64,000 nt of DNA. Origin: Gemmatimonadota bacterium (GTDB lineage: Bacteria > Gemmatimonadota > Gemmatimonadetes > Palauibacterales > Palauibacteraceae). The translations under genes were made by a program, and so were the position numbers. Where the stretch lies: contig JAJDWE010000055.1 in assembly GCA_022825725.1 (NCBI GenBank), forward strand, positions 28,919 to 92,918. Reading direction: 5' to 3'. This document shows, piece after piece, positions 42,357 to 59,900 of the stretch. Within the stretch, counting starts at the first letter, position 1. Each line of letters begins with the position of its first letter. Under the pieces are notes generated by a model. The model saw nothing but the letters and a program-made list of their open reading frames with translations. It searched no databases and was not told the origin of the DNA.

Positions 42357-42976
42357 AGCCGGCCCGCGCCGCGGCGCTGGGTCTTCTGGCCGGCGTCGTT
42401 GTGGGCGGCGCCGGCGGGGTCGCGCTGGGCGGCTTCGGCGGGTTCGGTCGCGGGAGCGCGGACGGCGGTGCGGCGGCGGACATCCTGGCGGGGCTGGTGG
42501 AGCGGCAGGACGAGCGCCTCGGGCAACTCGCGCAGGCCGCCGACGAATCCGCGCAGCTGCAGCGCGAACTCGCCCTCGCCCTCTTCTACCGCCTGCAGGA
42601 GTTCCGGCGCTTCGGGCTCGAGGGGCAGATCGTGACCTGGGTCGTACCGGGAGCTTCGGCGGGCTCCGCCGACCCGCTGGGCGGCGCTCTGGCCGGCGCC
42701 GTCCGCCTGCCCCAGTTGGCCGTGGACGCGGCGACGCGGGCGGAATGGCGCGCCGTCTCCGAGCGTCTCGCCGCCGTCGGGGCCGAGGTGGACCCCACCG
42801 TGTTCTCCGCCTTCGAGGACGTGCTCGAGTTCGTCGGACGCCGCCCCTGGCCGGGACGCTCGGGGCTGGCGGCGGCCACCGCCTCGGGTTGGGCGGATCC
42901 CGCGACGGTGGAGGCGTGGCTGTCGCTCAACCGGGCCCTCGTCGGCCGCGCGGATGCCATCCTCTCCGGATTCTGA
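42353..42976 (+). CDS. Hypothetical membrane-anchored protein
   Basis: GTG 42353 overlaps the peptidase stop (GTGA). N-terminal hydrophobic Gly-rich segment AAALGLLAGVVVGGAGGVALGG, then a helical body. This is the tail of track ORF 41237-42976, whose upstream part is an overlapping-frame artefact. Confidence 0.5.
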   Translation: MKPARAAALGLLAGVVVGGAGGVALGGFGGFGRGSADGGAAADILAGLVERQDERLGQLAQAADESAQLQRELALALFYRLQEFRRFGLEGQIVTWVVPGASAGSADPLGGALAGAVRLPQLAVDAATRAEWRAVSERLAAVGAEVDPTVFSAFEDVLEFVGRRPWPGRSGLAAATASGWADPATVEAWLSLNRALVGRADAILSGF

Positions 42977-42992
42977 GCGCTCCCCCCGCTTC

Positions 42993-45900
42993 ATGAACCG
43001 CCCCGGCAGCCCGCGGCGAAGGCCCGCGTCGTACCCGTCACGGTCCGCAGGACCCCGGATCGCCAGCCGTAGCGCTTACAGCGTGCTGCTGGCCGCGGCC
43101 GGCGCCTGTGGTCCGACCGACTTCTCCGCTCCCTCGCAGCCGGTGGAGTGGACGGAGGTGCCGGGCGCCCGCTGGCGGCCGTTGGCAGTGGAAGGCGGCG
43201 AGCCCGGGTTCACCTCCGTTCCGCCCTCCTGGTCCGGGGTCGGCTTCGGCAACGTGCTGTCGGATTCGAGCTTCATCGAGAACCAGATGCGGGGCAACGG
43301 CTCGGGAGTGGCGGCGGGCGACGTGAACGGGGATGGCCGGCCGGACCTCTACCTCGCTCGTCTCGAGGGGCCCAACGCCCTCTACCTCAACCTGGGCGAC
43401 TGGCGGTTCCGTGAGGCGGCTGCGGAGAACGGCGTTGCCGCAGGAGACCGGTTCTCGACCGGCGCCACGCTCGTGGACGTGGACGGAGACGGCGACCTCG
43501 ATCTCCTGCTCACCTCCATCGAGGGTCCGAAGTCCCTCTTCCTCAACGACGGAGCGGGGCGATTCGCGGAGGCACCGGCGGCCGGACTCCTGGACTCGCG
43601 GGGAGGGATGTCGAGCGCGCTGGCCGACATCGACGGAGACGGGGATCTCGACCTCTATCTCACGCGTTACAAGAGCCGCTCCGTACTCGATCTCTTTCCC
43701 GGGGACGAGGTCGCCTTCCCCAATACGGTGCGGCGGACGGGGCGGGGGTTCGAGGTCGTGGAGCGCTTCGCCGGCCACTACGAACTCGCGTGGCGGGCGG
43801 ACGGCGTCGTGCGGCTCGAAAGGGGGGAGGCCGACGAACTCTATCTGAACGAGTTCAACGAAGGCGGCGGAGAAGGCGGCGGCGGCTTTCGTCACGTCCC
43901 TTTCTCCTCCGGCGCCTTCCTCGACGCCGACGGCACGCCGCTGGGGGGCGCCCCGACCGAATGGGGGCTGGCGGCCCGCTTCGGGGATCTGGACGACGAC
44001 GGGGACCCGGACCTCTACGTCGCGAACGATCTCCACAGTCCCGACCGGCTGTGGATCAACCGTGGGGACGGCACCTTCCGCCTGCCGCCGCCCCACGCGC
44101 TTCCCATGACGAGCGCTTCCTCGATGGCGGTGGACTTCTCGGACGTCGACCGGGACGGCGACGCGGACGTCTTCGTGCTCGACATGCTGGCCCGCGACTC
44201 GCGCTCAAGGAAAACCCAGGATCCGGTGTCGCGCGTGGAGCACACGCCGCCCGGCGAGGCCTCCGGGGCGCAGCAGGTGAACCGCAACACGCTGCTCGCC
44301 AGCCGAGGGGACGGCACGTGGGCGGAGATCGGGCGCCAGGCGGGGGTCGAGGCGTCCGGGTGGTCGTGGTCGGCGCTCTTCGTCGACGTGGACCTGGACG
44401 GATTCGAGGATCTCCTCATCCCGAACGGCCACATCCGGGACCTCATGGACGCGGACACCCAGATCTCGATCCGGGAGGCCGGGCTCTCCGGCGAGCGCGA
44501 GTCCACCCTCCTTTACCGTCCGCTGCCTTTGCACAACGTGGCCTTCCGGAACCTGGGCGGGACCGGATTCGAGGAGGTGGGGCGCGCGTGGGGCGTGGCG
44601 CCGGAGCCGGACGTGTCGCACGGGGCGGCGCTGGCGGACTTCGACGGAGACGGGGATCTGGACGCGGTCGTGAACCGGCTGGGCAGCCCGGCGCTCCTGC
44701 TGCGCAACGACGCCGCGGCGCCCCGGCTCGCCGTCCGCCTCCGGGGGGAGGCGCCCAACACGGCCGGGGTCGGCGCCATGGTGTGGCTCGAGGTCGAGGG
44801 CCTGCCGCGCCAGACGAAAGAGGTCGCGGCGGGCGGCGGGTATCTCTCGGGTTCGGAGGCGATCGTCTCGTTCGCGATGGGGGACGCCGCCGAGGGCACG
44901 CTGGGCGTGGAGTGGCGTGGCGGAGGCCGGTCGGTCGTGCGCGTCGAGGGCCCGAACCGGCTGTACGAGGTGTTCGAGGCGGAGGCGTCGGAGGCGAGCG
45001 GGGCGGGGACGCCTGCACCGGCACCCACCCCTGCGGCGGCCCCGTGGTTCGAACTGGACGAGAGCTTCGGGCCGATCCACGACGAGCCGCCGTTCGCGGA
45101 GGCGGCGCGGCAGCCGCTCCTCCCGCTGCGGCTGTCCCGGATGGGGCCGAGCGTGGCGTGGCACGACCTGGACGGCGACGGGGACCCCGACCTGCTCATG
45201 AGTTCCGGGGCGAACGCGGCGCCGGTGCTCTTCCGGAACGACGGGGGGACGCTCGTCCGCGTGACGCTGGCCGGGCCGCGGGCGCCCGTCGACCAGACCG
45301 CGGTGATCCCGCTCCCGGCGGCGGACACGGCCCGAGTGCTGCTCGGGCTGTCGAGCTACGAGGCGCCGCCGGCGGAGGTGATGCAGGTGCCGGCCGTCGT
45401 GTCGGCGGCGTGGCCTGCGGGCGCCATGACGAGCGTGGCGGTGACGCCGGTCAACCGCGGCGTCGCGCCGGGGACATCGGGCTCGGTGGGCCCGCTGGCC
45501 GTCGCGGACTACGACCTCGACGGACGGCTCGACCTCTTCGCGGGCTCGCGGGTCATGCCGGGCGGCTACCCGCTTGCCGGCCCCTCCCGGCTCTTCCGCG
45601 GCCGTCCGGGCGGCGGCTTCGAGGAGGACCCGCGGGACGCGTCGGTCTTCGAGCGTCTCGGCATGGTGACCGGCGCCGTGTTCACGGATTACGACACGGA
45701 CGGCGACCCGGACCTCGCGCTCTCCGTCGAGTGGGGCCCCGTCCGGCTGCTGCGGAACGACCGGGGGCGCTTCTCCGACGTCACGGAGGCGATCGGCCTG
45801 TCCGCGCACGCCGGGCGCTGGAACGGCGTGTCCGCGGGCGACTTCGACGGGGACGGTCGTCCGGACCTGGTGGCGATCTCGTGGGGAGACAACACCGAGT

Positions 45901-46784
45901 ATCGCCCGACGCCCGCCGCCCCGCTCGAACTCCATTTCGGCGACGTGGACCGCAACGGCACCCTCGACCTCGTGGAGGCGCAGCGGGACGAACGCCTCGG
46001 CGCCGTGGCGCCGCTGGCCGCGCTGGGCCGCCTCGCCGAACACATCCAGCCCGTCGGTGCGCGCATGCCGACGCGCGCGGCCTACGCCGAAGCGGACGTG
46101 GGCCAGGCGCTGGGCGCGTGGCCGGAGGGTCGGCTGGAGGCGGCGGAGCTGCGGCACACGGTGTTCCTGAACCGGGGCGACCGCTTCGAGGCGGCACCGC
46201 TGCCGCGCGAGGCGCAGCAAGCCCCTTCGCTCGGAGTCCTGGTGGCGGACGCGAACGGAGACGGCCGCGAGGACCTGTTCCTGTCCCAGAACTTCTTCGC
46301 CACGGACGAGGACACTCCGCGTTATGACGCCGGCCGCGGGCTGTGGCTCGCGGGCGATGGGCGCGGCGGGTTCCGCCCGGTCTCGGGGCAGGAGTCCGGG
46401 GTCGCCGCCTACGGAGACCAGCGCGGCGCCGCGGCCGCGGACATCGACGGCGACGGACGCCTCGATTTCGTGCTGGGGATCAACGGCGGCGCCGCGCGCC
46501 TCTTCCGCGGAGCCGGCACTTCCCCGGGCCTGCGGGTGCGCCTCGCCGGACCGGCCGGAAACCCCCACGGAATCGGGGCCGTCCTGCGCATGGCGTACGC
46601 CGACGGCCTCGGTCCCGCGCGCGAAGTCAGGGCCGGGTCCGGGACCGGCTCCCACGACGACCCGGTTCAGATCCTGGGACTCTCGGACGACCCCGTCGCC
46701 ATCGAGGTCCGCTGGCCGGGCGGCGTCGTCGAGCGCGTCGACGTCCCCCCCGGCGCCCGCGAGGTCACCATCGGCCCGCCCTGA
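42993..46784 (+). CDS. FG-GAP/VCBS repeat protein with two ASPIC/UnbV-like modules (CRTAC1 family)
   Basis: About 14 Ca-binding-like FG-GAP cores, e.g. DVNGDGRPDLYL, DVDGDGDLDLLL, DIDGDGDLDLYL, DFDGDGDLDAVV, DLDGDGDPDLLM, DFDGDGRPDLVA, DIDGDGRLDFVL. Two UnbV/ASPIC-like segments (GVGAMVWLEV...AAGGGYLSGSE and GIGAVLRMAY...RAGSGTGSHDD). Start at ATG 42993. Confidence 0.9.
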   Translation: MNRPGSPRRRPASYPSRSAGPRIASRSAYSVLLAAAGACGPTDFSAPSQPVEWTEVPGARWRPLAVEGGEPGFTSVPPSWSGVGFGNVLSDSSFIENQMRGNGSGVAAGDVNGDGRPDLYLARLEGPNALYLNLGDWRFREAAAENGVAAGDRFSTGATLVDVDGDGDLDLLLTSIEGPKSLFLNDGAGRFAEAPAAGLLDSRGGMSSALADIDGDGDLDLYLTRYKSRSVLDLFPGDEVAFPNTVRRTGRGFEVVERFAGHYELAWRADGVVRLERGEADELYLNEFNEGGGEGGGGFRHVPFSSGAFLDADGTPLGGAPTEWGLAARFGDLDDDGDPDLYVANDLHSPDRLWINRGDGTFRLPPPHALPMTSASSMAVDFSDVDRDGDADVFVLDMLARDSRSRKTQDPVSRVEHTPPGEASGAQQVNRNTLLASRGDGTWAEIGRQAGVEASGWSWSALFVDVDLDGFEDLLIPNGHIRDLMDADTQISIREAGLSGERESTLLYRPLPLHNVAFRNLGGTGFEEVGRAWGVAPEPDVSHGAALADFDGDGDLDAVVNRLGSPALLLRNDAAAPRLAVRLRGEAPNTAGVGAMVWLEVEGLPRQTKEVAAGGGYLSGSEAIVSFAMGDAAEGTLGVEWRGGGRSVVRVEGPNRLYEVFEAEASEASGAGTPAPAPTPAAAPWFELDESFGPIHDEPPFAEAARQPLLPLRLSRMGPSVAWHDLDGDGDPDLLMSSGANAAPVLFRNDGGTLVRVTLAGPRAPVDQTAVIPLPAADTARVLLGLSSYEAPPAEVMQVPAVVSAAWPAGAMTSVAVTPVNRGVAPGTSGSVGPLAVADYDLDGRLDLFAGSRVMPGGYPLAGPSRLFRGRPGGGFEEDPRDASVFERLGMVTGAVFTDYDTDGDPDLALSVEWGPVRLLRNDRGRFSDVTEAIGLSAHAGRWNGVSAGDFDGDGRPDLVAISWGDNTEYRPTPAAPLELHFGDVDRNGTLDLVEAQRDERLGAVAPLAALGRLAEHIQPVGARMPTRAAYAEADVGQALGAWPEGRLEAAELRHTVFLNRGDRFEAAPLPREAQQAPSLGVLVADANGDGREDLFLSQNFFATDEDTPRYDAGRGLWLAGDGRGGFRPVSGQESGVAAYGDQRGAAAADIDGDGRLDFVLGINGGAARLFRGAGTSPGLRVRLAGPAGNPHGIGAVLRMAYADGLGPAREVRAGSGTGSHDDPVQILGLSDDPVAIEVRWPGGVVERVDVPPGAREVTIGPP

Positions 46785-48721: not shown

Positions 48722-48749
48722 TTGCATCCCGTTTCGAACCGCTTAGATT
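48722..48749 (+). promoter_or_regulatory. Candidate sigma-70-type promoter for the imuB-dnaE2 cassette
   Basis: TTGCAT - 16 nt - TAGATT sits in an unusually AT-rich patch about 50 nt upstream of ATG 48801. GGAAGAG lies 4 nt before the ATG as a possible SD. Pattern match only. Confidence 0.3.
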
Positions 48750-48762
48750 GGCCGGTCCGATT

Positions 48763-48783
48763 TTCGGTTTTTCTTCGGTTTTT
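48763..48783 (+). repeat. Tandem T-rich direct repeat (TTCGGTTTTT x2, 11-nt period) in the imuB leader
   Basis: Read directly: TTCGGTTTTT C TTCGGTTTTT, followed by GGGTTTGG. It stands out against the GC-rich background. Confidence 0.5.
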
Positions 48784-48800: not shown

Positions 48801-50099
48801 ATGGACGCAGGTCGCGGGAGCCGGATGGCGCTCTGCCTCTGGTGGCCGGGGTTCGAACTGGAACTGGAGCGGGTCCGGACTCCGTCGCTCGCGGACCCGC
48901 CGCTCGCGCTGCCGACGGCGGGGGACCGCCGCCGCATCGAGATGGGGTGCGCGCTCGCGGCCTCCTTCGGGGTCGAGCCGGGGATGATCGTCTCGCAGGC
49001 GATCGCGCTCTGCCCTTCGCTCGTCCTCTGCGAACCGGATCCGGATTTCCACGACGCGGCGCGCGACCGGATCGCGGAAGTCCTCCGCGGCTGGAGTCCG
49101 GTCGTTGAGCGCTCGGCCGAGCGGGGACGGTTCTTCGTGGGGGTCGACGGACTCGAACGACTGTACGGTCCGCCGGAGCGTCAGATCGCGGGGCTCCGGG
49201 CGAAGCTCGAGGCGCTGTCGCCGTGGCTCGCGGCGAGCGCCCGGATCGGCTGCGCGCCGGGGAAGTTCGCGGCCTGGGTCGCGGCGCGGTCGGCGGAGCC
49301 TGTCCGGCCGGCGGGGTCGGCGGGCTCCGGTCGGCCGGGCGCGGCCGTCTGCGTGGCACCGGCCGACCTCGCCGCGTTTCTGGCCCCGCAGCCGGTCGAT
49401 GTGCTGCCGGTGTCGCCGCGCATGGTCGAGCGGCTGAAGCGGCTCGGGGTCGAGCGGCTGGCGGGGATCGCGCGCATGCCCGAGCCGGCGCTCGTGTCGC
49501 AGTTCGGGGCCGATGGGCGCCGGGCGCTCGCCTGGGCGCGGGGGACGCGCATCGACCGTGTGCGGCCGGAGGCGCCGGCCCGGCCGATTCGCGTCGCGCT
49601 CGACTTTCCGAGCCCGATCGGGCAGCTCGAACTGCTGCACGCCGCGCTCGACCGGCTCATCGGCCGCGCGCTCGCGCATCCGCGGCGGCGAGGCAAGAGC
49701 GTCCGGGGGCTCAGGGTGTCGGCGAGCCTCGAGGATGGAGGCTCCTGGTCCATTCGCGCGATTGCCCGGGAACCCACGAGCGAGCCGACACGGATCGGGG
49801 CGTTCCTCCGCTCGCGGATCGCGCTCGACCGGCCCCGCCGCGCGGTCGAGACGTTGCGGCTCGAACTCTTCCGCTTCGGCCCGGCGAGCGCGCAGACCGG
49901 GCTCTTCGACCCGAAGGCCGGCGCGCCCCGCGCCTTCGGTTCGCTGGAGACGAAGGATGGCGAGCTGCTGCCCCCGTTCCGGCGCGCGGCGCGCGTACTG
50001 CGGTTGCGGCTGGGCGCCGCCGCGCTGTACCGGGTGCTCGAACTCGAGCCGAACTCCCGGCTCCCCGAGCGCCGGCACGCGCTCATGGAAATCGCGTAG
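48801..50099 (+). CDS. imuB: ImuB-like Y-family DNA polymerase homologue (short form)
   Basis: The N-terminus ..MALCLWWPGFELELERVR....L.....RRRIEMGCALAASFGVEPGMIVSQAIALCPSLV is typical of ImuB/DinB-fold proteins. The gene lies directly upstream of dnaE2. The start is ATG 48801 or 48825. Confidence 0.85.
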   Translation: MDAGRGSRMALCLWWPGFELELERVRTPSLADPPLALPTAGDRRRIEMGCALAASFGVEPGMIVSQAIALCPSLVLCEPDPDFHDAARDRIAEVLRGWSPVVERSAERGRFFVGVDGLERLYGPPERQIAGLRAKLEALSPWLAASARIGCAPGKFAAWVAARSAEPVRPAGSAGSGRPGAAVCVAPADLAAFLAPQPVDVLPVSPRMVERLKRLGVERLAGIARMPEPALVSQFGADGRRALAWARGTRIDRVRPEAPARPIRVALDFPSPIGQLELLHAALDRLIGRALAHPRRRGKSVRGLRVSASLEDGGSWSIRAIAREPTSEPTRIGAFLRSRIALDRPRRAVETLRLELFRFGPASAQTGLFDPKAGAPRAFGSLETKDGELLPPFRRAARVLRLRLGAAALYRVLELEPNSRLPERRHALMEIA

Positions 50100-50124
50100 C
50101 AGCCGTGGCAGAAGCTGGTGACCC

Positions 50125-50427
50125 ATGGCGAAACCCGGCGTGACACCGAGGTCGCGGAAGCCTAAGCCGCCCGCGGGGAAGCTGCGGCCGCTCAACCGCC
50201 CGCGGCCGGTGCGGGTCCGGCTCGGCGGCGCCGGGGTGCCCGTGAGCCTCGAAATCCGGGGGCGCTGGCGACGGATCGGCGACGTGTTCGACCAGTGGCG
50301 GATCGATGACGAGTGGTGGAGGGAACCGATCTCGCGCGTCTACTTCTCGATCGTGCTCGAGAACGGCGCCCACCTCACGGCGTACCACGATCTGATGCTG
50401 GATCGCTGGTTCCTGCAGCCGGAATAG
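50125..50427 (+). CDS. Small conserved-looking protein between imuB and dnaE2 (possible detached ImuB C-terminal domain, DUF6504-like)
   Basis: 100 aa. It starts 25 nt after imuB and ends 4 nt before dnaE2. A basic N-tail is followed by ..VSLEIRGRWRRIGDVFDQWRIDDEWWREPISRVYFSIVLENGAHLTAYHDLMLDRWFLQ. High GC3. Confidence 0.65.
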   Translation: MAKPGVTPRSRKPKPPAGKLRPLNRPRPVRVRLGGAGVPVSLEIRGRWRRIGDVFDQWRIDDEWWREPISRVYFSIVLENGAHLTAYHDLMLDRWFLQPE

Positions 50428-50431
50428 CGCC

Positions 50432-53400
50432 GTGGACGCCCGGCCGCGCGTGACCCCCCGGAGCAGCGTCGACTACGTCGAACTGCACGCGCACTCCGCC
50501 TACTCCTTTCTCGATGGGGCGTCGCGGCCGGAGGAACTCGCGGCGCGCGCGCTCGAACTGGACTATCCCGCGCTCGCGCTCACCGACCACGACGGGCTCT
50601 ACGGCTCGATGGAGTTCGCGCAGTTCGCCCGCGCCCACGGACTCCAGCCGATCACGGGCGCCGAACTCACCCTCGCCTCGCCGTTCGCCGCCGGAGACGT
50701 TCCCGCGGGAACGTCCGGAGGCTGCGCGCCGGCGGGACGGGCGGCGGAAACGGCCGACTGCCACGTCACGGTGCTGGCGGAGAGCGCGGCGGGATACGCG
50801 AACCTGTGCCGGCTCATCACCCGGGCGCACATGGAGAGTCCGCGCGGGGAACCCCGGCTCGACCTCGACGCGCTCCTCGAGCGGCCCGAGGGACTCATCC
50901 TCCTCACGGGGTGCCGCCGGAGTCCCCTTCTCACGGCGCTCGAACGGGGGACGGACGAAGCCGAGCGACTGGCGGGCCGCCTGCGCGACGCCTTCGGTCC
51001 CGGCAGCCTCTTCGTCGAACTCCAGAACAACGCGGTCCACGGCGACCTCGCGCGCGGCCGGGCGCTGAGCGCGCTGGCCGACCGGCTCCGCATCCCGGTC
51101 GTGGCCACGGGCAACGTCCACTACCACGTCGCCGACCGGCACCGTCTCCAGGACATCCTGGTCGCGATCCGGAACCGGACGACGGTCGACGATTCGCACG
51201 ACCTCCGCCGCCCCAACGCCTGCTTCCATCTCGCCTCGCCCCGGGAGATGGCGTGGCGCTTCGCGTCGCGGCCCGACGCGCTCCGCAACACGCGCGCGAT
51301 CGCCGAGCGCTGCCGGGCGTTCGATCTCACGGCCGATCTCGGCTACCGCTTCCCCGATTTCAAGGGGAGCGGCTTCGCCCCCGCCATGCGCGTACTCCAC
51401 CAGGTCTGCCACAGAGCGTTCGAGGTCCGCTACCCCCCCGGCAGCCGATACCGCCGCGAAGCCGAGGAACGGCTCGCCACCGAACTCGCGCTCGTCGACC
51501 GCCATGACCTGGCCGGGTTCTTCCTCGTCTATCACGACATCCTCGAACTCGCCCGGGAGGTCGCGCACCGCGTGCGGGGCGACTCGATGCCGCGCCAACT
51601 GCTCCCCCCCGGCCGCGGTCGCGGGTCCTCGGTCTCCTCCATCATCTGTTATCTGATCGGACTCTCCCACGTGGATCCGGTGCGGACGAACCTCTTTCTC
51701 GGCCGGTTCCTGAACGACGCCATGGAGAGCGTCCCGGACATCGACATCGACTTTGCGCGCGATATTCGCGAGGAACTGATCCTCGCGGTCTACGAGTGCT
51801 ACGGGTACGACCACGTCGGGCTCGTGTGCACCTTCCCCACCTACCGCACGCGCTCGATCGTGCGCGAACTGGGCAAGGCGCTCAGCCTCCCGGTCGGCGA
51901 CGTGGAAAAGCTGGCCAAGCTCGCCGAACCCGGAGAGGACGGGTTCATGGCCGAACTCGAGCGCATTCCCGGCCTCGAGGCGCGCGCGAACTCGCGGATC
52001 TGGCGGGCCTTCGCCGAACTGGCCGAGGAGATCAAGGGGCTCCCGCGGCACATCTCCCAGCATGTGGGCGGGATGATCATCTCGAGCCGGCCGCTGGTGG
52101 AGATCGTCCCGCTCGAGCCCGCCGCGTGGGAGGGGCGCGTCCTCTGCCAGTGGGACAAGGACTCCTGCGACGATGCGAGGTTCATCAAGATCGACTTTCT
52201 CGCGCTCGGAATGCTGTCGCTCGTCGAGGAGGCGGTGGAGACGATCCACGCGCGCCACGGCGAGGCCCCCGACCTCTCCCGCATCGACTACGAGGACGAG
52301 AGGATCTACGACCGCATCTGTTCGGGGGACACGGTGGGCCTCTTCCAGGTCGAGAGTCGCGCGCAGATCCAGATGCTGCGGCGGGTGCGGCCCCGGAACC
52401 TGGGCGACCTCGCGGTCCAGGTCGCGATCGTCCGGCCGGGTCCGATCGTCGGCGGGGCGGTCAACCCCTACGTCCGGCGGCGCGAGCAGCTGCGCAGGGA
52501 CCCGGACTATGTCGTCCCCTACGACCATCCGCTGCTCGAGGAAGTGCTCGGCGAGACGCTGGGCGTGATCATCTTCCAGGACCAGGTGCTGCAGGTGTGC
52601 AAGGCGCTCGCGGGCTTCAGCGACGGGCAGGCCGAGGGACTGCGGCGCGCCATGAGCCGCAAGCGCTCGCGCGAGGCGCTGCTGGGGTACTGGACGACGT
52701 TCCGGGACGGCGCGGCGGCGAAGGGGGTCGGCGGCCCCACGGCGAAGAAAGTGTTCGAGCAGGTCGTCGCGTTCTCGGAATTCGGGTTCCCGAAGTCGCA
52801 CGCGGTGGCGTTCGGGCTCCTCGCCTTCCAGTCCGCCTGGCTCCGCGACCGCTACCCGGCCGAGTACTACGTGGGGCTCTTCAACAACCAGCCGATGGGG
52901 TTCTATTCACTCGACGCGATCGGGCGCGACGCGCGCCGGCACGGGGTCGGCGTCCTGCTGCCGGATCTGAACGTCAGCCGGGTCGCCTGCACCGCCGAGG
53001 GGGACGATGTCCGGATCGGGCTCGGCATGGTCCGCGACTGGGGGACGGAGGCGGCCGAACTCGTGGTGGCCGAGCGCGAGCGCGGCGGACCGTTCGCGTC
53101 GCTGCCCGACTTTCTGCGCCGCACCCCGGCCGCGCTCAAGCGGGCCGCGATCGAGAACCTGATCTGGGTCGGGGGGCTCGACTCGCTGGGGATCGAACGC
53201 CGCGACCTGCTGTGGCAGACGGGGCTCTGGCTGGGTCCGGAGGCCGAGACGGAGGCGGAGCGCCGACGCCGCGAACTCGCGACGAACGCCGCGGGGCTGG
53301 GCGGGGACGCGTCGCCCGTCCGCGGACGGCGAAGCGCCGACCGCTCGGACCAGGGCCAGATCGAACTCGCGCTCGACGACCCCTGTGCGGATCTGCGGTT

Positions 53401-54046
53401 CGCGGGCACGCACGACATGGAGAAGATGATCGCGGAGTACCGCATCCTCTCCCTCGCCGCCTCGCTCCATCATCCGTTCGCGCTCGTGGGGGACCACCTG
53501 CCCGAGCGCACGGTCTCCTCGGCGCGCTTCCCCGATCTCCCCAACGGGAGCCGGGTCCGAGCGGCGGGGATCGTGGTGGCCCGCCAGCGCCCGCACACGG
53601 CCCGTGGATACATCTTCATCCTCATGGAGGACGAGTTCGGACCCATCAACGCGATCGTGAGGCCCGAGGTCTATCGGGAGTGTCGCGCCGCGATCCGCCT
53701 CGAACCCTTCCTCTACATCGATGGCGCGCTTCAGAAGGACGGCGCGACGTACAACGTGCTCGCCGAGGGGGTGTATCCCCTGCGCCTGAGTCCCGAACTC
53801 CGGCTGAGTCGCGAGACGGTCCCCGCCGTGGAGGGAGAGGCGGACACCGCGCCTGCTCCAATCGACCTGGACCCGGAGCCGGATCCTCTGACCCCCGCCC
53901 CGAACCGGATTCCGGCCGGCCATCGGATCGCGGCTGCGACCAACCGGAATCGGCTCGCCGAGCCGGATCCGTTCGCATATCTGGAAGCGCTGAGACGCGA
54001 CCCGCCCCCCACCATGAGCTGGGGCCGCGGCGGCGGCTGCCGTTGA
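50432..54046 (+). CDS. dnaE2: Error-prone DNA polymerase III alpha-type subunit DnaE2
   Basis: PHP domain YVELHAHSAYSFLDGASRPEELAARALELDYPALALTDHDGLYG. Polymerase core (..GRGSSVSSIICYLIGLSHVDP.., ..PDIDIDF.., ..GLPRHISQHVGGMII..). OB fold near the C-terminus. The imuB context fits. A roughly 100-aa low-complexity C-terminal tail follows. Confidence 0.93.
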   Translation: MDARPRVTPRSSVDYVELHAHSAYSFLDGASRPEELAARALELDYPALALTDHDGLYGSMEFAQFARAHGLQPITGAELTLASPFAAGDVPAGTSGGCAPAGRAAETADCHVTVLAESAAGYANLCRLITRAHMESPRGEPRLDLDALLERPEGLILLTGCRRSPLLTALERGTDEAERLAGRLRDAFGPGSLFVELQNNAVHGDLARGRALSALADRLRIPVVATGNVHYHVADRHRLQDILVAIRNRTTVDDSHDLRRPNACFHLASPREMAWRFASRPDALRNTRAIAERCRAFDLTADLGYRFPDFKGSGFAPAMRVLHQVCHRAFEVRYPPGSRYRREAEERLATELALVDRHDLAGFFLVYHDILELAREVAHRVRGDSMPRQLLPPGRGRGSSVSSIICYLIGLSHVDPVRTNLFLGRFLNDAMESVPDIDIDFARDIREELILAVYECYGYDHVGLVCTFPTYRTRSIVRELGKALSLPVGDVEKLAKLAEPGEDGFMAELERIPGLEARANSRIWRAFAELAEEIKGLPRHISQHVGGMIISSRPLVEIVPLEPAAWEGRVLCQWDKDSCDDARFIKIDFLALGMLSLVEEAVETIHARHGEAPDLSRIDYEDERIYDRICSGDTVGLFQVESRAQIQMLRRVRPRNLGDLAVQVAIVRPGPIVGGAVNPYVRRREQLRRDPDYVVPYDHPLLEEVLGETLGVIIFQDQVLQVCKALAGFSDGQAEGLRRAMSRKRSREALLGYWTTFRDGAAAKGVGGPTAKKVFEQVVAFSEFGFPKSHAVAFGLLAFQSAWLRDRYPAEYYVGLFNNQPMGFYSLDAIGRDARRHGVGVLLPDLNVSRVACTAEGDDVRIGLGMVRDWGTEAAELVVAERERGGPFASLPDFLRRTPAALKRAAIENLIWVGGLDSLGIERRDLLWQTGLWLGPEAETEAERRRRELATNAAGLGGDASPVRGRRSADRSDQGQIELALDDPCADLRFAGTHDMEKMIAEYRILSLAASLHHPFALVGDHLPERTVSSARFPDLPNGSRVRAAGIVVARQRPHTARGYIFILMEDEFGPINAIVRPEVYRECRAAIRLEPFLYIDGALQKDGATYNVLAEGVYPLRLSPELRLSRETVPAVEGEADTAPAPIDLDPEPDPLTPAPNRIPAGHRIAAATNRNRLAEPDPFAYLEALRRDPPPTMSWGRGGGCR

Positions 54047-54111: not shown

Positions 54112-55488
54112 ATGCCGCAGCAAAGCCTTGTCGTCGGGGCCGTCGCGCACGCGGCGGCGGGTCTCATGCTGTTCGCCGGGAGCGTTCCGGCCAGCGCGCA
54201 GTCCGAGGCGGGGACGGTGGTGTGCGTCGGAAGCGAGCTGTCCACGCCGCGGACACCGGATCCCGACCGCCGCTTCGGCTGGGAGGGCATGGCCGTCGTC
54301 TACCGGTCCGATGTGGCGCTCGCCTACCGGGTCGGCGTCCCGCTCGATGGCCGGCAGCGTGTGGAACGAGCCCTGCGCTCGGAACTCGGCGACCACCCGG
54401 AAGTTTCGTGTATCTGGTCGAACCGGGGTGACCATCACGTCGCGATCATCAGGTATACGTCGGCGATCCGTCTCGCCCCGACGTCGGATCCGGACGGCTC
54501 CGTGTTCGAGCGCCTTGCCATCGGATTCGGGGCGAGCGCGGAGGCGGCCGAGACGAACGCGACGACCGGCAACGATCATTTCGCGAGGTATTACGACGGG
54601 GGCGGCTACGAAGTCCTCGCCCGGGAGAGCTGGGGCGTCGAGGAAGGCGGCGCGGCGCCCGGGACGGCGGACCGGCCCCCGGCACAGGTATTCGAGGTGT
54701 TCGCCACGTTCCGCGACTGCGCGTTCTGTCCGGAGCTGGTCGTGGTGCCGCCGGGAACGTTCACGATGGGCTCCCCGGAGTCGGAGGAGTTCCGGGGAGC
54801 CGTCGAAGGTCCGCAGCACTCGGTGACGATCGGGGCTCCATTCGCGGTCGGGGTGCATGAAGTCACATTCGCGGAGTGGGACGCGTGCGTGCGGATGGGA
54901 GGGTGCCGCTACACGCCGGCCGACCGGCGCTGGGGCCGCGAGCGTCGTCCGGTGATCCACGTGAGTTGGGAGGACGCGCAGGCGTACGTGTCGTGGCTTT
55001 CGGGACTGACGGGACAGCGGTACCGGCTTCCGAGCGAGGCGGAGTGGGAGTACGTGGCGCGGGCCGGCACGGTGACGGCCCGGCATTGGGGGGAGGACTT
55101 GTCGGACCTGTGCCGCTACGCGAACGGCGCCGCGCGGCGCCCCGGGCGGCTCCGGGTCGCGGGTCTCTCCGGCTACGTGGCCGACGGACCGTGTGCCGAC
55201 GACTACGGAACCACGGCGCCGGTGGGGTCCTTCGCGCCGAACGCGTTCGGGCTGTACGACGTGCTGGGGAACGTGTCGGAGTGGACGCAGGACTGCTGGA
55301 ACGACAGCTACGCGGGCGCGCCGACGGATGGGAGCGCCTGGGAATCCGGGGACTGCGACCGTCGCGTCCTCCGCGGCGGATCCTGGTTCGTCACCGCGTG
55401 GTTCCTCCGCTCGGCCAACCGGTCCGGAAATCTCCCCGACGCCAGGGACATGTACTACGGATTCCGCGTGGCCCGGACGCTCCCCTGA
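54112..55488 (+). CDS. Exported formylglycine-generating-enzyme (SUMF1/FGE-sulfatase) domain protein with an unknown N-terminal domain
   Basis: Signal peptide ..AAGLMLFAGSVPASAQ. A roughly 190-aa N-terminal domain of unknown family follows. The C-terminal FGE domain reads FTMGSPESE......HSVTIGAPFAVGVHEVTFAEWDAC, VSWEDAQAYVSWLS...GQRYRLPSEAEWEYVARAG, YDVLGNVSEWTQDCW, VLRGGSW, GFRVARTL. Confidence 0.85.
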   Translation: MPQQSLVVGAVAHAAAGLMLFAGSVPASAQSEAGTVVCVGSELSTPRTPDPDRRFGWEGMAVVYRSDVALAYRVGVPLDGRQRVERALRSELGDHPEVSCIWSNRGDHHVAIIRYTSAIRLAPTSDPDGSVFERLAIGFGASAEAAETNATTGNDHFARYYDGGGYEVLARESWGVEEGGAAPGTADRPPAQVFEVFATFRDCAFCPELVVVPPGTFTMGSPESEEFRGAVEGPQHSVTIGAPFAVGVHEVTFAEWDACVRMGGCRYTPADRRWGRERRPVIHVSWEDAQAYVSWLSGLTGQRYRLPSEAEWEYVARAGTVTARHWGEDLSDLCRYANGAARRPGRLRVAGLSGYVADGPCADDYGTTAPVGSFAPNAFGLYDVLGNVSEWTQDCWNDSYAGAPTDGSAWESGDCDRRVLRGGSWFVTAWFLRSANRSGNLPDARDMYYGFRVARTLP

Positions 55489-55525: not shown

Positions 55526-56320
55526 TCAGGTACCGGGCGTAGCTTCGAGCGTTTCCAGCCAGCGATAGCCGTGGGTCGGGACGTTCGGCGACCCGGTCAT
55601 GCCTTCGGGGAACATGTCGAACCTCTCGACGCGCAGGCGGTAGTCGACTTCGTGCCGAGGCTGGAAGCCCACGATCTCGCCGCGGTAGGGGGCGCCGTTG
55701 ACGACCTTGCAGTAACCCGGATGGCCGTCGCCGCACTCCACCCGATGGCGCTCGACCGAGATCTCCTCTTCGGTACCGGCTGCCATGGTCCTGGAGACGA
55801 CCTCGCTCGCCACGTACCGGCCATCGCCATACCGGCTGGTTTCCAGGAGGTAGTGGTAGCCGCCCTCGTATTCGAAACTGTTGATGAGGTCGTCGTACGG
55901 CGCGCCATCCACCACCGGGCAGAAATCATCGCTCCGGGCGCATATGACCCGCGCGGGACCCACCGAGAGGGTTGCAGGGGTGGATGGCGCCGGGGTCTTC
56001 TCCAGTTGCTCCAGCAGGCGGTATGCGTACGCGCCGGCGTCCTGCGGCGGTTCTTCCCCATCCCACGGATCGTACTTGCCGACCCGAAGTCGATAGTCGT
56101 AGCCGGCCTCGTACTCGAATCCCTCGATTCCGTCGTAGAACAACCCGCCGTCGACCACCATGCACGACCGCAGGCCCACGCCGTAACACTTGGCGAGGGT
56201 GGGGCCGACGGTCATCTCCACGACCTCGAGGTATGCGGGCTCGCCCGGTCCCGTGGAACCGCCACAGCCGGCAAGGACCAGGGCCGGGAGCAGAACGAAA
56301 GCAAAGCTTCTGCCGCGAAT
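55526..56320 (-). CDS. Triple-repeat lipoprotein (DUF4377-like repeats), probable ATT start
   Basis: Three copies of C-x(5-8)-C-x-VV(D/N)G....(I/L)xxF(E/Q)(Y/P)xxG/HxxDY/HYxL. Upstream of the first ATG (56221) the frame stays open and encodes (I)RGRSFAFVLLPALVLAGCGG, a lipoprotein signal. It begins at ATT 56320, 7 nt after AAGGAG. An in-frame TGA lies 6 codons further upstream. Confidence 0.7.
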   Translation of the reverse strand: MRGRSFAFVLLPALVLAGCGGSTGPGEPAYLEVVEMTVGPTLAKCYGVGLRSCMVVDGGLFYDGIEGFEYEAGYDYRLRVGKYDPWDGEEPPQDAGAYAYRLLEQLEKTPAPSTPATLSVGPARVICARSDDFCPVVDGAPYDDLINSFEYEGGYHYLLETSRYGDGRYVASEVVSRTMAAGTEEEISVERHRVECGDGHPGYCKVVNGAPYRGEIVGFQPRHEVDYRLRVERFDMFPEGMTGSPNVPTHGYRWLETLEATPGT

Positions 56321-56889: not shown

Positions 56890-56976
56890 CGGCTAACGAA
56901 GCGCCTCGAAGGTCCCGACTCCGACTCCGGCACCTGCGCCGTTGACCGTGTGCGGCACAATGGGGTATCTACGGGC

Positions 56977-59900
56977 ATGAAAAACAAGCATGCGCAGCAG
57001 TCGGACCTCGGCCCCCTGATCCGCGAGGTCGAATCGCGACTCCCGGACGCGCCCGGCGAAGCCGTCCGCAATCTCTCCCGCCGTCTCTTCAGCCGCGGCT
57101 ACGCCCACATCGCGGATGGACGTCCGGTGCGCGCTCTGGCCGACGATGTCGCAGCCCTCTACCGCCTCCTGGCCGGCGCCGCCGACGGCGAAATCGCGAT
57201 CCGCCTCGCCTGGGACGAGGACGATCCATCGCGCGGCGTCCTTCAGACGGTGATGGAGGACCGGCCCTTCATCGTCGACACGCTGCGCGAGTATCTCCAC
57301 TCGGCGGGGATCGACATCCCGCACCTGCTCCACCCGGTCGTCGTGGTGGACCGGGACGCCTCCGGCCGCGTGCTCGACATCCGCGACCATTCCGCCGAGG
57401 GCACGCGCGTATCGGTCGTCCACATCGTGCTCGACGACGCGCACCACGCCGAGGTCCGCGAGACGTTGGAAGCCGAGGTACGGCAGCGCCTCGAACTCGT
57501 GAGGGCGGTCACCGCGGACTTCTCCGCCATGATCGAGCAGGTGGGGACGCTCGTCAGCGAACTCGAGACCAAGCGGGTCGAGACGCCGTGGCGGAGCGCC
57601 GAATTCGAGGAGATCCAGGACCTGCTCCGGTGGCTCGTGGACCCCGGGTTCGTCTTCCTCGGCTATCGCGCGTACCAAATCGAGACGGACGACGCGGGCC
57701 GCGACTGGATCCGCGTCGACGAGGGAAGCGGCCTCGGGATCCTCAGGGACGACGACAAATCGAAATACTACGAACCCCGGCCCCTCGACGAACTCCCCGC
57801 CTACCTCCGCGCCCGGGTGCTGGGCGGCCCGCTTCTCATCATCTCCAAGACCAACGCCCAGAGTCCGATTCGGCGCAACGTCCGCATGGACTACGTGGGC
57901 ATCAAACGTCTGCGCCCGGACGGGACGGTGTACGGCGAGTACCGGTTCCTCGGTCTGTTCACCGCGAAGGCGTTCTCGCAGGACGCCTCCTCCATCCCGA
58001 TCCTGCGCCGCAAGCTGCGCGAGATCCTTCAGCTGGAAGCCGCGCCCCCGGGATCGCACGACTACAACGTCATCCTGGGGACGTTCAACTCGATGCCGAA
58101 GGAGGAACTGTTCCTCGCCTCGGTGGAGGAGATCCGCTCGGTCGTCGATGCGGTCATGGCGACCGGAGGCGGGGACGATGTGCGGGTCACGGCGCGTCCC
58201 GACCAGCTCGGCCGCGGCGTCCAGCTCATGGTCATCCTCCCCAGGACCCATTTCTCCGGGCAGGTGCGGAGGCGGCTGCAGACGGCGCTGATCGAGGCCT
58301 ACCGGGGGACGCTCCTCAACTACCACCTCGCGCTCGGCCAGGGCGACCAGGCGCGCCTCCATTTCTATCTGGCCCACGACCCGGACGAGGTGGGGGCGGT
58401 CGACCTCGACGCCGTCCAGGCCAAGGTCCGCTCGATCGTCCGCACCTGGGAGGAGCGCCTCGAGGACGCGCTCGATGCCGTCCACGGCCCTTCGCGGGGC
58501 CACGAACTCGCAACGCACGTCGTGCGCTTCTCGACCGGCTACCAGGCGGCGATGGACATCGACACCGCCATCGAGGACGTCGCGTGTCTCGCGCGGCTGG
58601 CCGAGACGGGCGAGAGCCAGGTGCTGCTGAAACGGTCCCTGACGGAAGCGGACGGACGGCACTACCAGTTGCGGCTGTATGCCCGGAAGGGTCACTACGT
58701 CCTGAGCGACGTGATCCCCACGCTCGAGAACCTGGGGCTCCGGGTGCTCGACTCGCTCCGCTTCACGATCCAGCTCAAGGATGAGACGCCCGACGCCACG
58801 GAGGAGACGTTCGCGGCGCGCGTCCAGTCCTTCGAAGCCGAGGCGCGACGCGCCGGCGACCTCGACATCGCGGCGGCGCAGGACCGGATCGGAGACATGC
58901 TGCGGGCCATCCGGGCGGGAGTCGCCGAAGATGACCGGCTGAACGAACTCATCGTGACCGCCGGTCTCACGTGGCCGGAGGTATCCGTCCTCCGGGCCTA
59001 TGCGGGCTACACCTTCCGCATCGGCGCCGTCGCCGCCCCCACCGGCGGCCAGTTTCCGCTCACGGCGTACCCCGACATCGCACGCTGCATCTTCCGTGCC
59101 TTCGAGGCGCGCTTCGATCCGGAGGCACAGGAGGGGGCGGCCGACACGATGCGGCATCTGAAGCGCGAGTTCGCGCGGGCGCTGGCTTCGGTGCGCGGGA
59201 TCGAGGACGACCGGACGCTGCGGCGGATGATGGAACTCGTCCACGCCACCGTGCGCACGAACCACTACCGGGGCGAGTTGCGCCGGTCACCTCTCCTCGC
59301 GCTCAAGATCTCGAGCCGCTCCGTCGACTTCATTCCGAAGCCGAAGCCGAAGCACGAGGTCTACCTGCGCGGGCCTCGGACGGAGGCCGCCCACCTGCGC
59401 ATGGACGACGTGGCGCGCGGCGGCATCCGGTGGAGCGACCGCTACGGGGACTTCCGGGTGGAAGTGCTCGGACTCGTGAAGACGCAGAGGGTGAAGAACG
59501 CCGTCATCGTGCCCGGCGGCGCGAAGGGCGCCTTCATCGTGAAGGGACTGCCGGATGAGCGCGAAGCGCGGCTTGCGGCGGGGCTGGACAGCTACCGGGA
59601 CTTCATTCGCGGGCTGCTGGAAGTCTCCGACGACGTCGTCGATGGCGAAGTGACGCAACCCCGGGGGATGGTGATCCACGACGGACCCGACCCGTACCTC
59701 GTCGTGGCGGCGGACAAGGGGACGGCGAAGAACTCGGATACGGCCAATGAACTCGCGGCGGAAGCGGGCTTCTGGCTCGACGACGCCTTCGCCTCCGGCG
59801 GATCGCAGGGGTACGACCACAAGAAAGAGGGAATCACGGCCCGCGGTGCGTGGGAATGCGTGAAGCGCCACTTCCGGGAAGCGGACATCGACTACGAGCA

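What the first reader, a model, noticed from the sequence alone, without database searches (positions are those of the whole stretch)
48801..54046. imuB - small ORF - dnaE2 mutagenesis cassette lacking imuA
Seen in sequence: an ImuB-like gene (432 aa), a 100-aa ORF and a DnaE2-type polymerase are separated by 25 nt and 4 nt. The upstream neighbour is a divergent DoxX membrane protein, so no imuA (RecA/SulA-like) gene precedes imuB.

Established knowledge: the canonical SOS mutasome cassette is imuA-imuB-dnaE2 under LexA control. Actinobacteria use a non-homologous ImuA'.

Inference: the locus is either an imuA-less variant or one in which the small ORF takes the accessory role. DnaE2 also has a roughly 100-aa Pro/Ala/Asp-rich C-terminal tail after the OB fold, so its true stop or a sequencing frameshift should be checked.
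Basis: partly seen in the sequence, partly recalled or inferred. Interest (0 to 1): 0.55.

Follow-up and report, generated by a model that had tools for sequence, protein, structure and literature searches.

The report
Split-ImuB error-prone polymerase cassette
This is an ordinary member of an already described damage-tolerance gene cassette in which the helper protein ImuB is encoded as two genes next to the error-prone polymerase DnaE2, here found in a sponge-associated Gemmatimonadota bacterium.

Summary
The three ORFs exist at the stated coordinates, with the stated 25-nt and 4-nt gaps. The 432-aa protein is a catalytically dead Y-family polymerase. It keeps a beta-clamp-like motif (QTGLF) and a RecA-N-terminus-like motif, and it stops where canonical ImuB continues into its C-terminal domain. 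The 100-aa ORF is that missing domain, a standalone ImuB-C (Pfam DUF6504). It is 52% identical to the published ImuB-C subunit of Sphaerobacter thermophilus. DnaE2 keeps its three catalytic aspartates.

The locus is therefore an imuY(iPolY)-imuB-C-dnaE2 cassette. This type has been described by Aravind 2013, Timinskas and Venclovas 2019 and the 2026 NAR survey (as "DnaE2X-iPolY-ImuBC-RecA"). It was shown to drive UV mutagenesis in Deinococcus deserti without ImuA. The small ORF does not replace ImuA. RecA is the predicted substitute.

The DnaE2 tail is genuine. It is a variable linker ending in a conserved C-terminal motif related to the known SRDF[H/R] motif, and it is reproduced in independent assemblies.

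The arrangement recurs in all 75 related genome loci that include upstream DNA (Gemmatimonadota and Chloroflexota).

One side observation may be new. Chloroflexota copies carry a GAAC-N4-GTTC LexA box. Gemmatimonadota copies instead carry a conserved TTCGG-N6-TTCGG direct repeat whose regulator is unknown.

The parts
48801..50099 (+). imuY / iPolY: a catalytically inactive Y-family polymerase homologue, equivalent to ImuB without its C-terminal domain. It carries a beta-clamp-like motif QTGLF and a RecA-NT-like motif RRAARVLRLRLGAAALYRV, and ends in the conserved tail LELEPNSRLPERRHALMEIA.
   Evidence: Pfam IMS scores 1e-14 and every DinB model scores far below its cutoff. It is 27% identical to canonical Rhizobium ImuB over residues 11-354. 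In the MAFFT alignment with E. coli DinB, the first catalytic motif (DinB D8) aligns with LCLWWPGF and the SLDE motif (D103/E104) aligns with non-acidic residues (ERGRFF), so no catalytic carboxylate is kept; canonical ImuB shows the same kind of loss. Its C-terminal motifs align with the RecA-NT motif and tail listed for Sphaerobacter iPolY ACZ39475 in PMC6511836 Table S4.
50125..50427 (+). [quoted passage not shown] The N-terminus (residues 1-25) is basic and disordered and contains RPLNRPRP. Residues 27-98 form a six-stranded beta domain with the invariant motif W(R/Q)IDDEWWR.
   Evidence: It has 86 standalone homologues, and 15 of 32 aligned members hit Pfam DUF6504. The C-terminus of canonical Rhizobium ImuB (428-500) hits the same Pfam model at 24.5 bits. 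hhalign of the family profile against Rhizobium ImuB aligns residues 413-483 with E = 1.7e-4. It is 52% identical (E = 4e-28) to the published ImuB-C ACZ39476 of Sphaerobacter. The AF2 model has pLDDT 82 and is all-beta. Foldseek found no PDB neighbour.
50432..54046 (+). dnaE2: the error-prone C-family polymerase, predicted to be the active enzyme. It has PHP, palm/fingers, HhH and OB domains, then a disordered linker (about residues 1118-1178) and a conserved C-terminal motif DPFAYLEALRRDPPPTMSWGRGGGCR.
   Evidence: NCBIfam 'error-prone DNA polymerase' is the best hit at 909 bits, just below its curated cutoff of 939. The catalytic Asp triad is conserved as D436, D438 and D588, matching E. 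coli DnaE D401, D403 and D555. The tail motif is conserved in frame across genera while the linker length varies. The tail is the same in independent assemblies apart from one T->N substitution in L003.
48722..48749 (+). Promoter-like elements TTGCAT (48722-48727), a 16-nt spacer and TAGATT (48744-48749) in the 129-nt intergenic region shared with the divergent DoxX gene.
   Evidence: Read from the sequence. The elements are conserved in most Palauibacter loci, with variants TAGGTT and TTGCGT/TTGCCT. The match to the sigma-70 consensus is too weak for the scan to report it. This assignment is an inference.
48763..48778 (+). Candidate operator: the direct repeat TTCGGTTTTTCTTCGG (TTCGG-N6-TTCGG), 14 nt after the -10-like hexamer and 23 nt before the imuY ATG.
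   Evidence: It is the only exact copy in the 64-kb window. The repeat is present within 300 nt upstream of imuY in 27 Gemmatimonadota-type loci and at the head of the unit in five more, with L023 carrying only a relaxed TTCG-N7-TTCG copy. It is the only copy in about 16 kb in most of these loci (22 of 27). It also lies directly upstream of dnaE2 where that gene is separate (L037, L054). Its function has not been tested.

Best explanation
The locus is a three-gene operon encoding a damage-tolerance 'mutasome' of the imuY(iPolY)-imuB-C-dnaE2 type, that is, an ImuA-less cassette with a split ImuB.

Proposed mechanism:
- DnaE2 is the active error-prone polymerase.
- The 432-aa protein is a dead Y-family polymerase that acts as a scaffold. 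Its QTGLF motif is predicted to dock on the beta sliding clamp, and its RecA-N-terminus-like helix is predicted to bind RecA, which stands in for ImuA.
- The 100-aa protein is the ImuB C-terminal beta-barrel made as a separate polypeptide. By analogy with models of the M. tuberculosis mutasome and with the published AlphaFold model of the Sphaerobacter four-protein complex, it bridges the scaffold to the PHP domain of DnaE2.
- Expression is probably repressed through the TTCGG-N6-TTCGG operator next to the promoter and induced by DNA damage.

Shown here: the gene identities, the inactive active site, the motifs, the split point, the orthology to published systems, the conservation of the arrangement, and that the DnaE2 stop codon is genuine.

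Inferred from the literature: complex formation, the role of RecA, and mutagenic lesion bypass.
For: Identity of the parts:
- The alignment shows no catalytic carboxylates at the positions of DinB D8, D103 and E104.
- The same alignment shows that the protein ends just after the RecA-NT-like motif and the 'P.SR(I/L)PERR' tail, where Rhizobium ImuB continues into the ImuB-C domain.
- The small ORF aligns to that ImuB-C segment and is 52% identical to the published ImuB-C ACZ39476.
- The DnaE2 catalytic triad is intact.

Conservation:
- In 80 genome loci, a polY homologue sits directly upstream of the small ORF in all 75 that contain upstream DNA.
- dnaE2 lies within 8 kb in 53 of the 80.
- No Rhizobium-type ImuA appears in any of them.

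Literature:
- Standalone ImuB-C with an inactive Y-family polymerase and DnaE2 was described in PMC3765255 and PMC6511836.
- The 'DnaE2X-iPolY-ImuBC-RecA' system is called a split ImuB and was modelled with AlphaFold in PMC12926913.
- UV-induced mutagenesis in Deinococcus deserti needs imuY, dnaE2 and RecA, and that genome has no imuA (PMC8072749).
Against: - Absence of imuA from the whole genome could not be checked, because only 64 kb is available.
- Gemmatimonas aurantiaca, in the same phylum, has a canonical ImuA-ImuB1-DnaE2, so a second, canonical system elsewhere cannot be excluded.
- The window's small ORF does not itself reach the DUF6504 threshold. Its only direct Pfam hit is a weak DUF7092 match (E = 0.006), so membership rests on its family and on pairwise and profile comparisons.
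- No recA or lexA gene lies in the window, and the window has no recognised LexA box.
- Binding to RecA and to the clamp is inferred from motifs only.
- Placement of this DnaE2 in the published DnaE2X clade was not tested by phylogeny.
Confidence: 0.88

Rival explanations
1. The small ORF is a functional replacement for ImuA. In this reading it plays the RecA-like accessory role in a cassette whose ImuB is otherwise complete.
For: It occupies a slot in a three-gene cassette that lacks imuA, and it is conserved.
Against: [quoted passage not shown]
- Its predicted fold is an all-beta domain of about 70 residues, not a RecA-type ATPase core.
- The upstream Y-family protein lacks exactly this domain, so the ORF completes ImuB rather than replacing ImuA.
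- The Y-family protein keeps a RecA-NT-like motif, which the literature proposes binds RecA itself (PMC6511836).
Confidence: 0.04
2. The split is an artefact or a pseudogene. In this reading a sequencing or assembly frameshift, or a recent mutation, cut a canonical full-length imuB into two ORFs.
For: The two ORFs lie in different frames only 25 nt apart. Together they reproduce the domain order of ImuB.
Against: - The same stop, gap and start are present in four independent assemblies of this organism.
- The two-gene arrangement is conserved in 75 loci from Gemmatimonadota, Chloroflexota and one actinobacterial MAG.
- The C-terminal residues before the stop are conserved.
- Each small protein has its own conserved N-terminal segment, RPLNRPRP.
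- There are 2220 representative clusters of the family, and the 150 best-scoring representatives listed are all short proteins (74-197 aa).
Confidence: 0.02
3. A canonical ImuA (or ImuA') is encoded elsewhere in the genome and works with this cassette, so the system is a dispersed ImuA-ImuB-DnaE2 and not RecA-dependent.
For: Split cassettes are common (PMC8072749). Gemmatimonas aurantiaca in the same phylum has ImuA-ImuB1-DnaE2. The rest of the genome could not be searched.
Against: - Published surveys found no imuA in genomes that carry iPolY + ImuB-C + DnaE2 systems (PMC6511836; PMC12926913).
- D. deserti has none.
- None lies within +/-8 kb in 80 related loci or in the 64-kb window.
- This evidence is limited: the only ImuA query used was a Rhizobium sequence, and ImuA proteins are divergent.
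Confidence: 0.08

Closest known systems
[quoted passage not shown] 2009, reviewed in PMC8072749)
   Same: It has the same three structural genes in the same order: an inactive Y-family protein, a standalone ImuB-C of about 80-100 aa, and DnaE2. It has no imuA. This is the only version with genetic evidence, since UV mutagenesis there requires imuY, dnaE2 and RecA.
   Different: The window has no lexA gene in the operon or anywhere in its 64 kb. The upstream control element is a TTCGG-N6-TTCGG direct repeat, not a known LexA box. The host phylum is different (Gemmatimonadota). Sequence relatedness to the Deinococcus proteins was not measured here.
DnaE2X-iPolY-ImuBC-RecA system (Timinskas et al., NAR 2026, PMC12926913; 'Kyrpidia tusciae / Sphaerobacter' iPolY-ImuB-C-DnaE2 group of Timinskas and Venclovas 2019, PMC6511836)
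   Same: The small ORF is 52% identical to Sphaerobacter ImuB-C ACZ39476. The Y-family protein has the same RecA-NT-like motif and the same 'EVEPWSRIPERRxAL' tail as ACZ39475. It is the same predicted split ImuB.
   Different: Those surveys used complete genomes and called the group small. Their supplementary text as held here has no Gemmatimonadota hit in the 2026 files and lists only the canonical cassette for G. aurantiaca in 2019 (some files are truncated). Here at least 595 GTDB species carry the signature motif. Membership of this DnaE2 in the DnaE2X clade was not tested by a tree.
Canonical ImuA-ImuB-DnaE2 (ImuABC) mutasome of Caulobacter, Pseudomonas, Mycobacterium and Rhizobium (L001)
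   Same: It shares a dead Y-family scaffold with a clamp motif, a RecA-NT motif and an ImuB-C domain. It shares a DnaE2 with a disordered C-terminal tail ending in an SRDF[H/R]-like motif. The presumed function, damage-induced mutagenic bypass, is the same.
   Different: There is no imuA. ImuB-C is a separate gene. The proteins are only 27% (ImuB) and 35% (DnaE2) identical to the Rhizobium ones. The C-terminal motif is derived: MSWG followed by an RGGGCR extension, instead of SRNFH.

Membership tests
Canonical ImuA-ImuB-DnaE2 cassette | An imuA (RecA/SulA-like) gene adjacent to the cassette or elsewhere in the genome | tested here: not met
   The 64-kb window has no ImuA- or RecA-like ORF, and none lies within +/-8 kb in 80 related loci. 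The whole genome could not be tested, and only a Rhizobium ImuA was used as query.
Canonical ImuA-ImuB-DnaE2 cassette | ImuB as one polypeptide: an inactive Y-family core, a clamp motif, a RecA-NT motif and a fused ImuB-C domain | tested here: not met
   The core, the clamp-like motif and the RecA-NT-like motif are present. The protein stops before ImuB-C, which is encoded by the next gene in another frame.
Canonical ImuA-ImuB-DnaE2 cassette | LexA (SOS) control through a recognised LexA box | tested here: inconclusive
   There is no GAAC-N4-GTTC or other known box upstream in the window or in the Gemmatimonadota relatives. A conserved TTCGG-N6-TTCGG repeat stands in its place. Chloroflexota relatives have GAAC-N4-GTTC in 31 of 36 loci.
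imuY/iPolY - ImuB-C - DnaE2 (DnaE2X-iPolY-ImuBC-RecA) system | A Y-family homologue with a disrupted active site | tested here: met
   Neither catalytic motif of DinB is kept: LCLWWPGF aligns with the D8 motif and ERGRFF aligns with SLDEAY (D103/E104).
imuY/iPolY - ImuB-C - DnaE2 (DnaE2X-iPolY-ImuBC-RecA) system | A RecA-NT-like motif at the C-terminus of the Y-family protein | tested here: met
   RRAARVLRLRLGAAALYRV aligns with the motif column listed for Sphaerobacter ACZ39475 (RPRRARQLIEAIRQLKQRYGTSPIYRVV) and with Rhizobium ImuB. This is a match by sequence pattern only; binding was not tested.
imuY/iPolY - ImuB-C - DnaE2 (DnaE2X-iPolY-ImuBC-RecA) system | A standalone ImuB-C protein encoded next to the Y-family gene | tested here: met
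   The synteny holds in all 75 loci that include upstream DNA.
imuY/iPolY - ImuB-C - DnaE2 (DnaE2X-iPolY-ImuBC-RecA) system | An associated DnaE2 with an intact polymerase active site that belongs to the DnaE2X clade | tested here: inconclusive
   The gene is adjacent and its catalytic triad is intact. It is 43-56% identical to the DnaE2 of Chloroflexota and other Gemmatimonadota cassettes, against 35% to Rhizobium DnaE2A. No phylogeny against the published groups was made.
imuY/iPolY - ImuB-C - DnaE2 (DnaE2X-iPolY-ImuBC-RecA) system | RecA as a subunit, and a requirement of the genes for damage-induced mutagenesis | not testable with these tools
   This needs biochemistry or genetics. The only precedent is D. 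deserti and D. ficus (PMC8072749).
Pfam DUF6504 (ImuB-C domain) | A match to the family model at the gathering threshold | tested here: inconclusive
   The window protein itself gives no DUF6504 hit, only DUF7092 at E = 0.006. Of 32 aligned close homologues, 15 hit DUF6504 (best 1e-6), and P0039, at 48% identity, passes the cutoff. Membership is therefore by transitivity and by profile alignment.

The most novel reading that the evidence does not exclude
The conserved TTCGG-N6-TTCGG direct repeat is the operator of an undescribed DNA-damage regulon in Gemmatimonadota. In many relatives it forms a composite palindrome, TTCGG-N6-TTCGG-N8-10-CCGAA-N6-CCGAA. It could be a new phylum-specific LexA-binding motif, with a direct-repeat architecture reminiscent of the alphaproteobacterial GTTC-N7-GTTC box. 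Alternatively it could be the site of a non-LexA damage regulator. In either case it would co-regulate imuY-imuB-C, dnaE2, a SplB-like radical-SAM repair enzyme, and DinB_2 and 2OG-oxygenase genes.
Probability: 0.5. Interest if true: 0.5.

Novelty: new member of a known kind. Interest (0 to 1): 0.28.

Why it matters
The main finding adds little. It shows that the split-ImuB, ImuA-less DnaE2 mutasome occurs in Candidatus Palauibacter and many other Gemmatimonadota. It also shows that this type is far more common in uncultured Gemmatimonadota and Chloroflexota than surveys of complete genomes suggested: at least 595 GTDB species carry the ImuB-C signature motif. [quoted passage not shown] Extra natural variants are therefore useful for co-evolution analysis and structural modelling of the ImuB-C/DnaE2 and RecA-NT interfaces. 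The upstream direct-repeat element could give a handle on how DNA-damage responses are wired in Gemmatimonadota, where I found no published SOS box.

Tried and rejected
- NCBIfam gave no hit for the small ORF. Pfam gave it only a sub-threshold DUF7092 hit.
- A profile search of PDB sequences and a Foldseek search of the AF2 model against PDB found nothing significant. This agrees with the published statement that ImuB-C has no close structural relative.
- The afdb50 fold library was unavailable, so I could not test whether the model superposes on ImuB C-termini in AlphaFold DB.
- The consensus promoter scan found no sigma-70 site upstream of imuY. Its one 'terminator-like' hit at 48750-48769 is just the T-rich operator region. 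I reject an attenuator reading because the two TTCGG units are conserved while the spacer varies, which is the pattern of a DNA site.
- My first automated extraction of DnaE2 tails and of one polY (L074) picked wrong frames in several GC-rich loci. I used only the rows in the correct frame.
- The window has only chance-level one-mismatch matches to the repeat (7 found, 7.7 expected), so no second regulon member lies in these 64 kb.
- tblastn with E. coli LexA and RecA found no such gene next to the composite operator in 80 metagenome loci. The LexA hypothesis for the repeat stays open.
- A literature search for a Gemmatimonadetes LexA box found nothing, and a search for 'DUF6504' found no paper.
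Full report
**Observation**

They are separated by 25 nt and 4 nt, and each is in a different frame.

- The first ORF hits Pfam IMS (Y-family polymerase) at 1e-14 but falls far below every DinB cutoff.
- The third has the full PHP, DNA_pol3_alpha, finger, HhH and OB architecture, and its best NCBIfam hit is 'error-prone DNA polymerase' (909 bits, cutoff 939).
- The divergent upstream gene is a DoxX/MauE membrane protein.
- The region is about 70% G+C, so long chance ORFs abound. These three, however, are supported by family hits, by conservation, and by identical gene calls in four independent metagenome assemblies of the same organism.
- The closest genomes are MAGs of Candidatus Palauibacter, Gemmatimonadota.

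**The small ORF is a standalone ImuB-C domain**

- A protein search found 86 homologues, nearly all standalone proteins of 85-115 aa from Gemmatimonadota and Chloroflexota. Several are pre-tagged PF20114.
- Their alignment has an invariant W(R/Q)IDDEWWR core and a conserved RPLNRPRP segment.
- Fifteen of 32 members hit Pfam DUF6504.
- The C-terminus (residues 428-500) of a canonical, ImuA-adjacent Rhizobium ImuB hits the same model above its threshold.
- The family profile aligns to residues 413-483 of that ImuB (hhalign E = 1.7e-4).
- The ORF is 52% identical (E = 4e-28) to ACZ39476. That protein is listed as 'ImuB-C' in the published Sphaerobacter thermophilus 'DnaE2X-iPolY-ImuBC-RecA system'.
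- An exhaustive profile search found 2220 representative clusters. The best 150 are all short standalone proteins.
- AlphaFold2 predicts six beta strands over residues 27-98 (pLDDT 82) after a disordered basic N-terminus. Foldseek found no PDB neighbour. This matches the published description of ImuB-C as a beta-barrel without close structural relatives (PMC12926913).

**The 432-aa protein is the rest of a split ImuB**

It is 27% identical to Rhizobium ImuB over the Y-family core. The following points come from an alignment with 27 relatives, Rhizobium ImuB and E. coli DinB.

- Neither catalytic motif of DinB is kept: LCLWWPGF aligns with the D8 motif and ERGRFF aligns with SLDEAY (D103/E104). 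Canonical ImuB shows the same kind of loss.
- A Q-x-x-L-(F/W) beta-clamp-type motif (QTGLF) is conserved.
- Next comes RRAARVLRLRLGAAALYRV plus the tail LELEPNSRLPERRHALMEIA. These align with the 'RecA-NT-like motif' and C-terminal tail tabulated for Sphaerobacter iPolY ACZ39475.
- At this point Rhizobium ImuB continues through a linker into ImuB-C, whereas the window protein stops.

The two genes together therefore equal one ImuB.

**DnaE2 and its tail**

- The polymerase Asp triad is intact: D436, D438 and D588 correspond to E. coli D401, D403 and D555.
- The tail after the OB fold is a Pro/Ala/Glu-rich linker. Its length and sequence vary between Palauibacter species.
- The tail always ends, in frame, with DPF(A/T)YLEALRRDPPPTMSWGRGGGC(R/S).
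- More distant relatives end in ...SKNWG...SHNFG or ...SRNFH, and Rhizobium DnaE2 ends in KSRNFH.
- This is the known SRDF[H/R] motif at the very C-terminus of DnaE2, which sits in a disordered region (PMC3919608).
- The tail is the same in independently assembled strain variants apart from one T->N substitution in L003. The 1191-aa versus 1204-aa difference between variants is a 13-residue indel in the PHP domain, not in the tail.
- The stop codon is therefore genuine, and there is no frameshift.

**Conservation of the arrangement**

- Of 80 genome loci retrieved through the ImuB-C motif, a polY homologue lies directly upstream in all 75 that include upstream DNA.
- dnaE2 lies in the locus in 53 of the 80. 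It is usually immediately downstream.
- No Rhizobium-type ImuA appears in any locus. LexA appears in one.
- At least 595 GTDB species matched the motif.
- The window itself has no recA, lexA or imuA homologue.

**Comparison with what is known**

- Aravind et al. 2013 named ImuB-C. They noted solo ImuB-C in operons with DnaE2 and an inactive DinB-like gene, and with SplB-like radical SAM enzymes.
- The 2026 survey calls the type DnaE2X-iPolY-ImuBC-RecA, 'a split ImuB'. It treats it as a possible ancestor of ImuA-ImuB-DnaE2 and supports it with AlphaFold models.
[quoted passage not shown] UV mutagenesis there needs imuY, dnaE2 and RecA, and the genome has no imuA.
- The locus is therefore a new member, in a phylum not listed for this type in those surveys. 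G. aurantiaca, the Gemmatimonadetes genome in the 2019 set, has the canonical cassette.

**Regulation (a side finding, only partly followed up)**

- Chloroflexota relatives carry an exact GAAC-N4-GTTC LexA/Cheo box 30-110 nt before polY in 31 of 36 loci. Gemmatimonadota relatives never do.
- Gemmatimonadota relatives instead have a direct repeat, TTCGG-N6-TTCGG. In the window it lies at 48763-48778, just after the promoter-like TTGCAT-16 nt-TAGATT. It is the only exact copy in 64 kb.
- The repeat heads the transcription unit in 32 of the 33 Gemmatimonadota-type loci with upstream DNA (L023 has only a relaxed TTCG-N7-TTCG copy), and in 22 of the 27 loci with a nearby copy it is the only one in about 16 kb. 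My estimate of the chance expectation from base composition is about 0.03 per locus.
- The repeat recurs directly upstream of dnaE2 where that gene is separate (L037, L054).
- In another Gemmatimonadota clade the repeat forms a composite palindrome ahead of a radical-SAM gene that precedes polY (L060, L063, L070).
Of the 80 fetched, 47 have that radical-SAM gene beside the site and 26 show polY downstream. A few have DinB_2, 2OG 'Oxygenase-NA' or DUF1697 genes beside the site.
- No lexA or recA was seen next to it, so the regulator is unknown.
- I found no paper describing a Gemmatimonadetes SOS box.

**Verdict**

It is wrong about what the small ORF is. The system is an ordinary member of a published, partly characterised class. 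Interest is low to moderate and rests mainly on the candidate operator.

Noticed in passing
window 48722-48778; also L008-L026, L030, L037-L039, L043, L049, L052, L054, L067, L069, L075, L081: A conserved direct repeat, TTCGG-N6-TTCGG, lies next to a promoter-like TTGCAT/TAGATT pair upstream of imuY. It heads the unit in 32 of 33 Gemmatimonadota-type loci with upstream DNA and is usually the only copy in about 16 kb. It also lies directly upstream of dnaE2 where that gene is separate (L037 at 7015, L054 at 12915). It is a candidate operator whose regulator is unknown.
   Followed up: partly
L060 5297-5338, L063 5343-5383, L070 5604-5644; metagenome loci L089-L168: A composite palindromic form of the repeat (TTCGG-N6-TTCGG-N8-10-CCGAA-N6-CCGAA) precedes a SplB-like radical-SAM gene, which is followed by polY, imuB-C and dnaE2. 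A metagenome scan found at least 120 such sites. A few sit next to DinB_2, 2OG 'Oxygenase-NA' or DUF1697 genes. About a dozen low-GC hits are perfect hairpins that look unrelated.
   Followed up: partly
L028, L034-L036, L041, L044, L046, L048, L050, L051, L053, L056-L059, L061, L062, L064, L065, L068, L071, L072, L074, L076, L078-L080, L082, L085-L087 (30-110 nt before polY): Chloroflexota versions of the same cassette carry an exact GAAC-N4-GTTC (Gram-positive-type LexA box) upstream, typically inside TAGAAC-N4-GTTCTA. The cassette has therefore changed its control element between phyla.
   Followed up: partly
window 50690-50731 (DnaE2 residues 87-100): Co-occurring strain variants differ by a 13-residue indel plus neighbouring substitutions in a Gly/Ala/Pro-rich insertion of the DnaE2 PHP domain (1204 aa in the window and L004, 1191 aa in L003 and L005). 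The rest of the protein is nearly identical.
   Followed up: partly
L030, L049, L052, L067, L081 (about 150-250 nt before the polY core): An inverted repeat, CCCACCC-N9-13-GGGTGGG, lies between the TTCGG repeats and the conserved polY N-terminus in one Gemmatimonadota subgroup. It may be a hairpin or part of an N-terminal extension. It remains unexplained.
   Followed up: no
window 50125-50427: The window's ImuB-C protein scores weakly on Pfam DUF7092 (E = 0.006) and not on DUF6504, although its close relatives hit DUF6504. The two Pfam families may be related or overlapping.
   Followed up: no
window 42954-46784, 54112-55488, 55526-56221 (-), 56950-61818: The neighbouring genes look unrelated to the cassette. 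They are a 1276-aa protein rich in Asp/Gly repeats (domains not searched), an FGE-sulfatase-domain protein, a DUF4377 protein and a 1622-aa NAD-specific glutamate dehydrogenase (from the gene calls). The downstream gene order is shared with strain-variant contigs L003 and L004.
   Followed up: no
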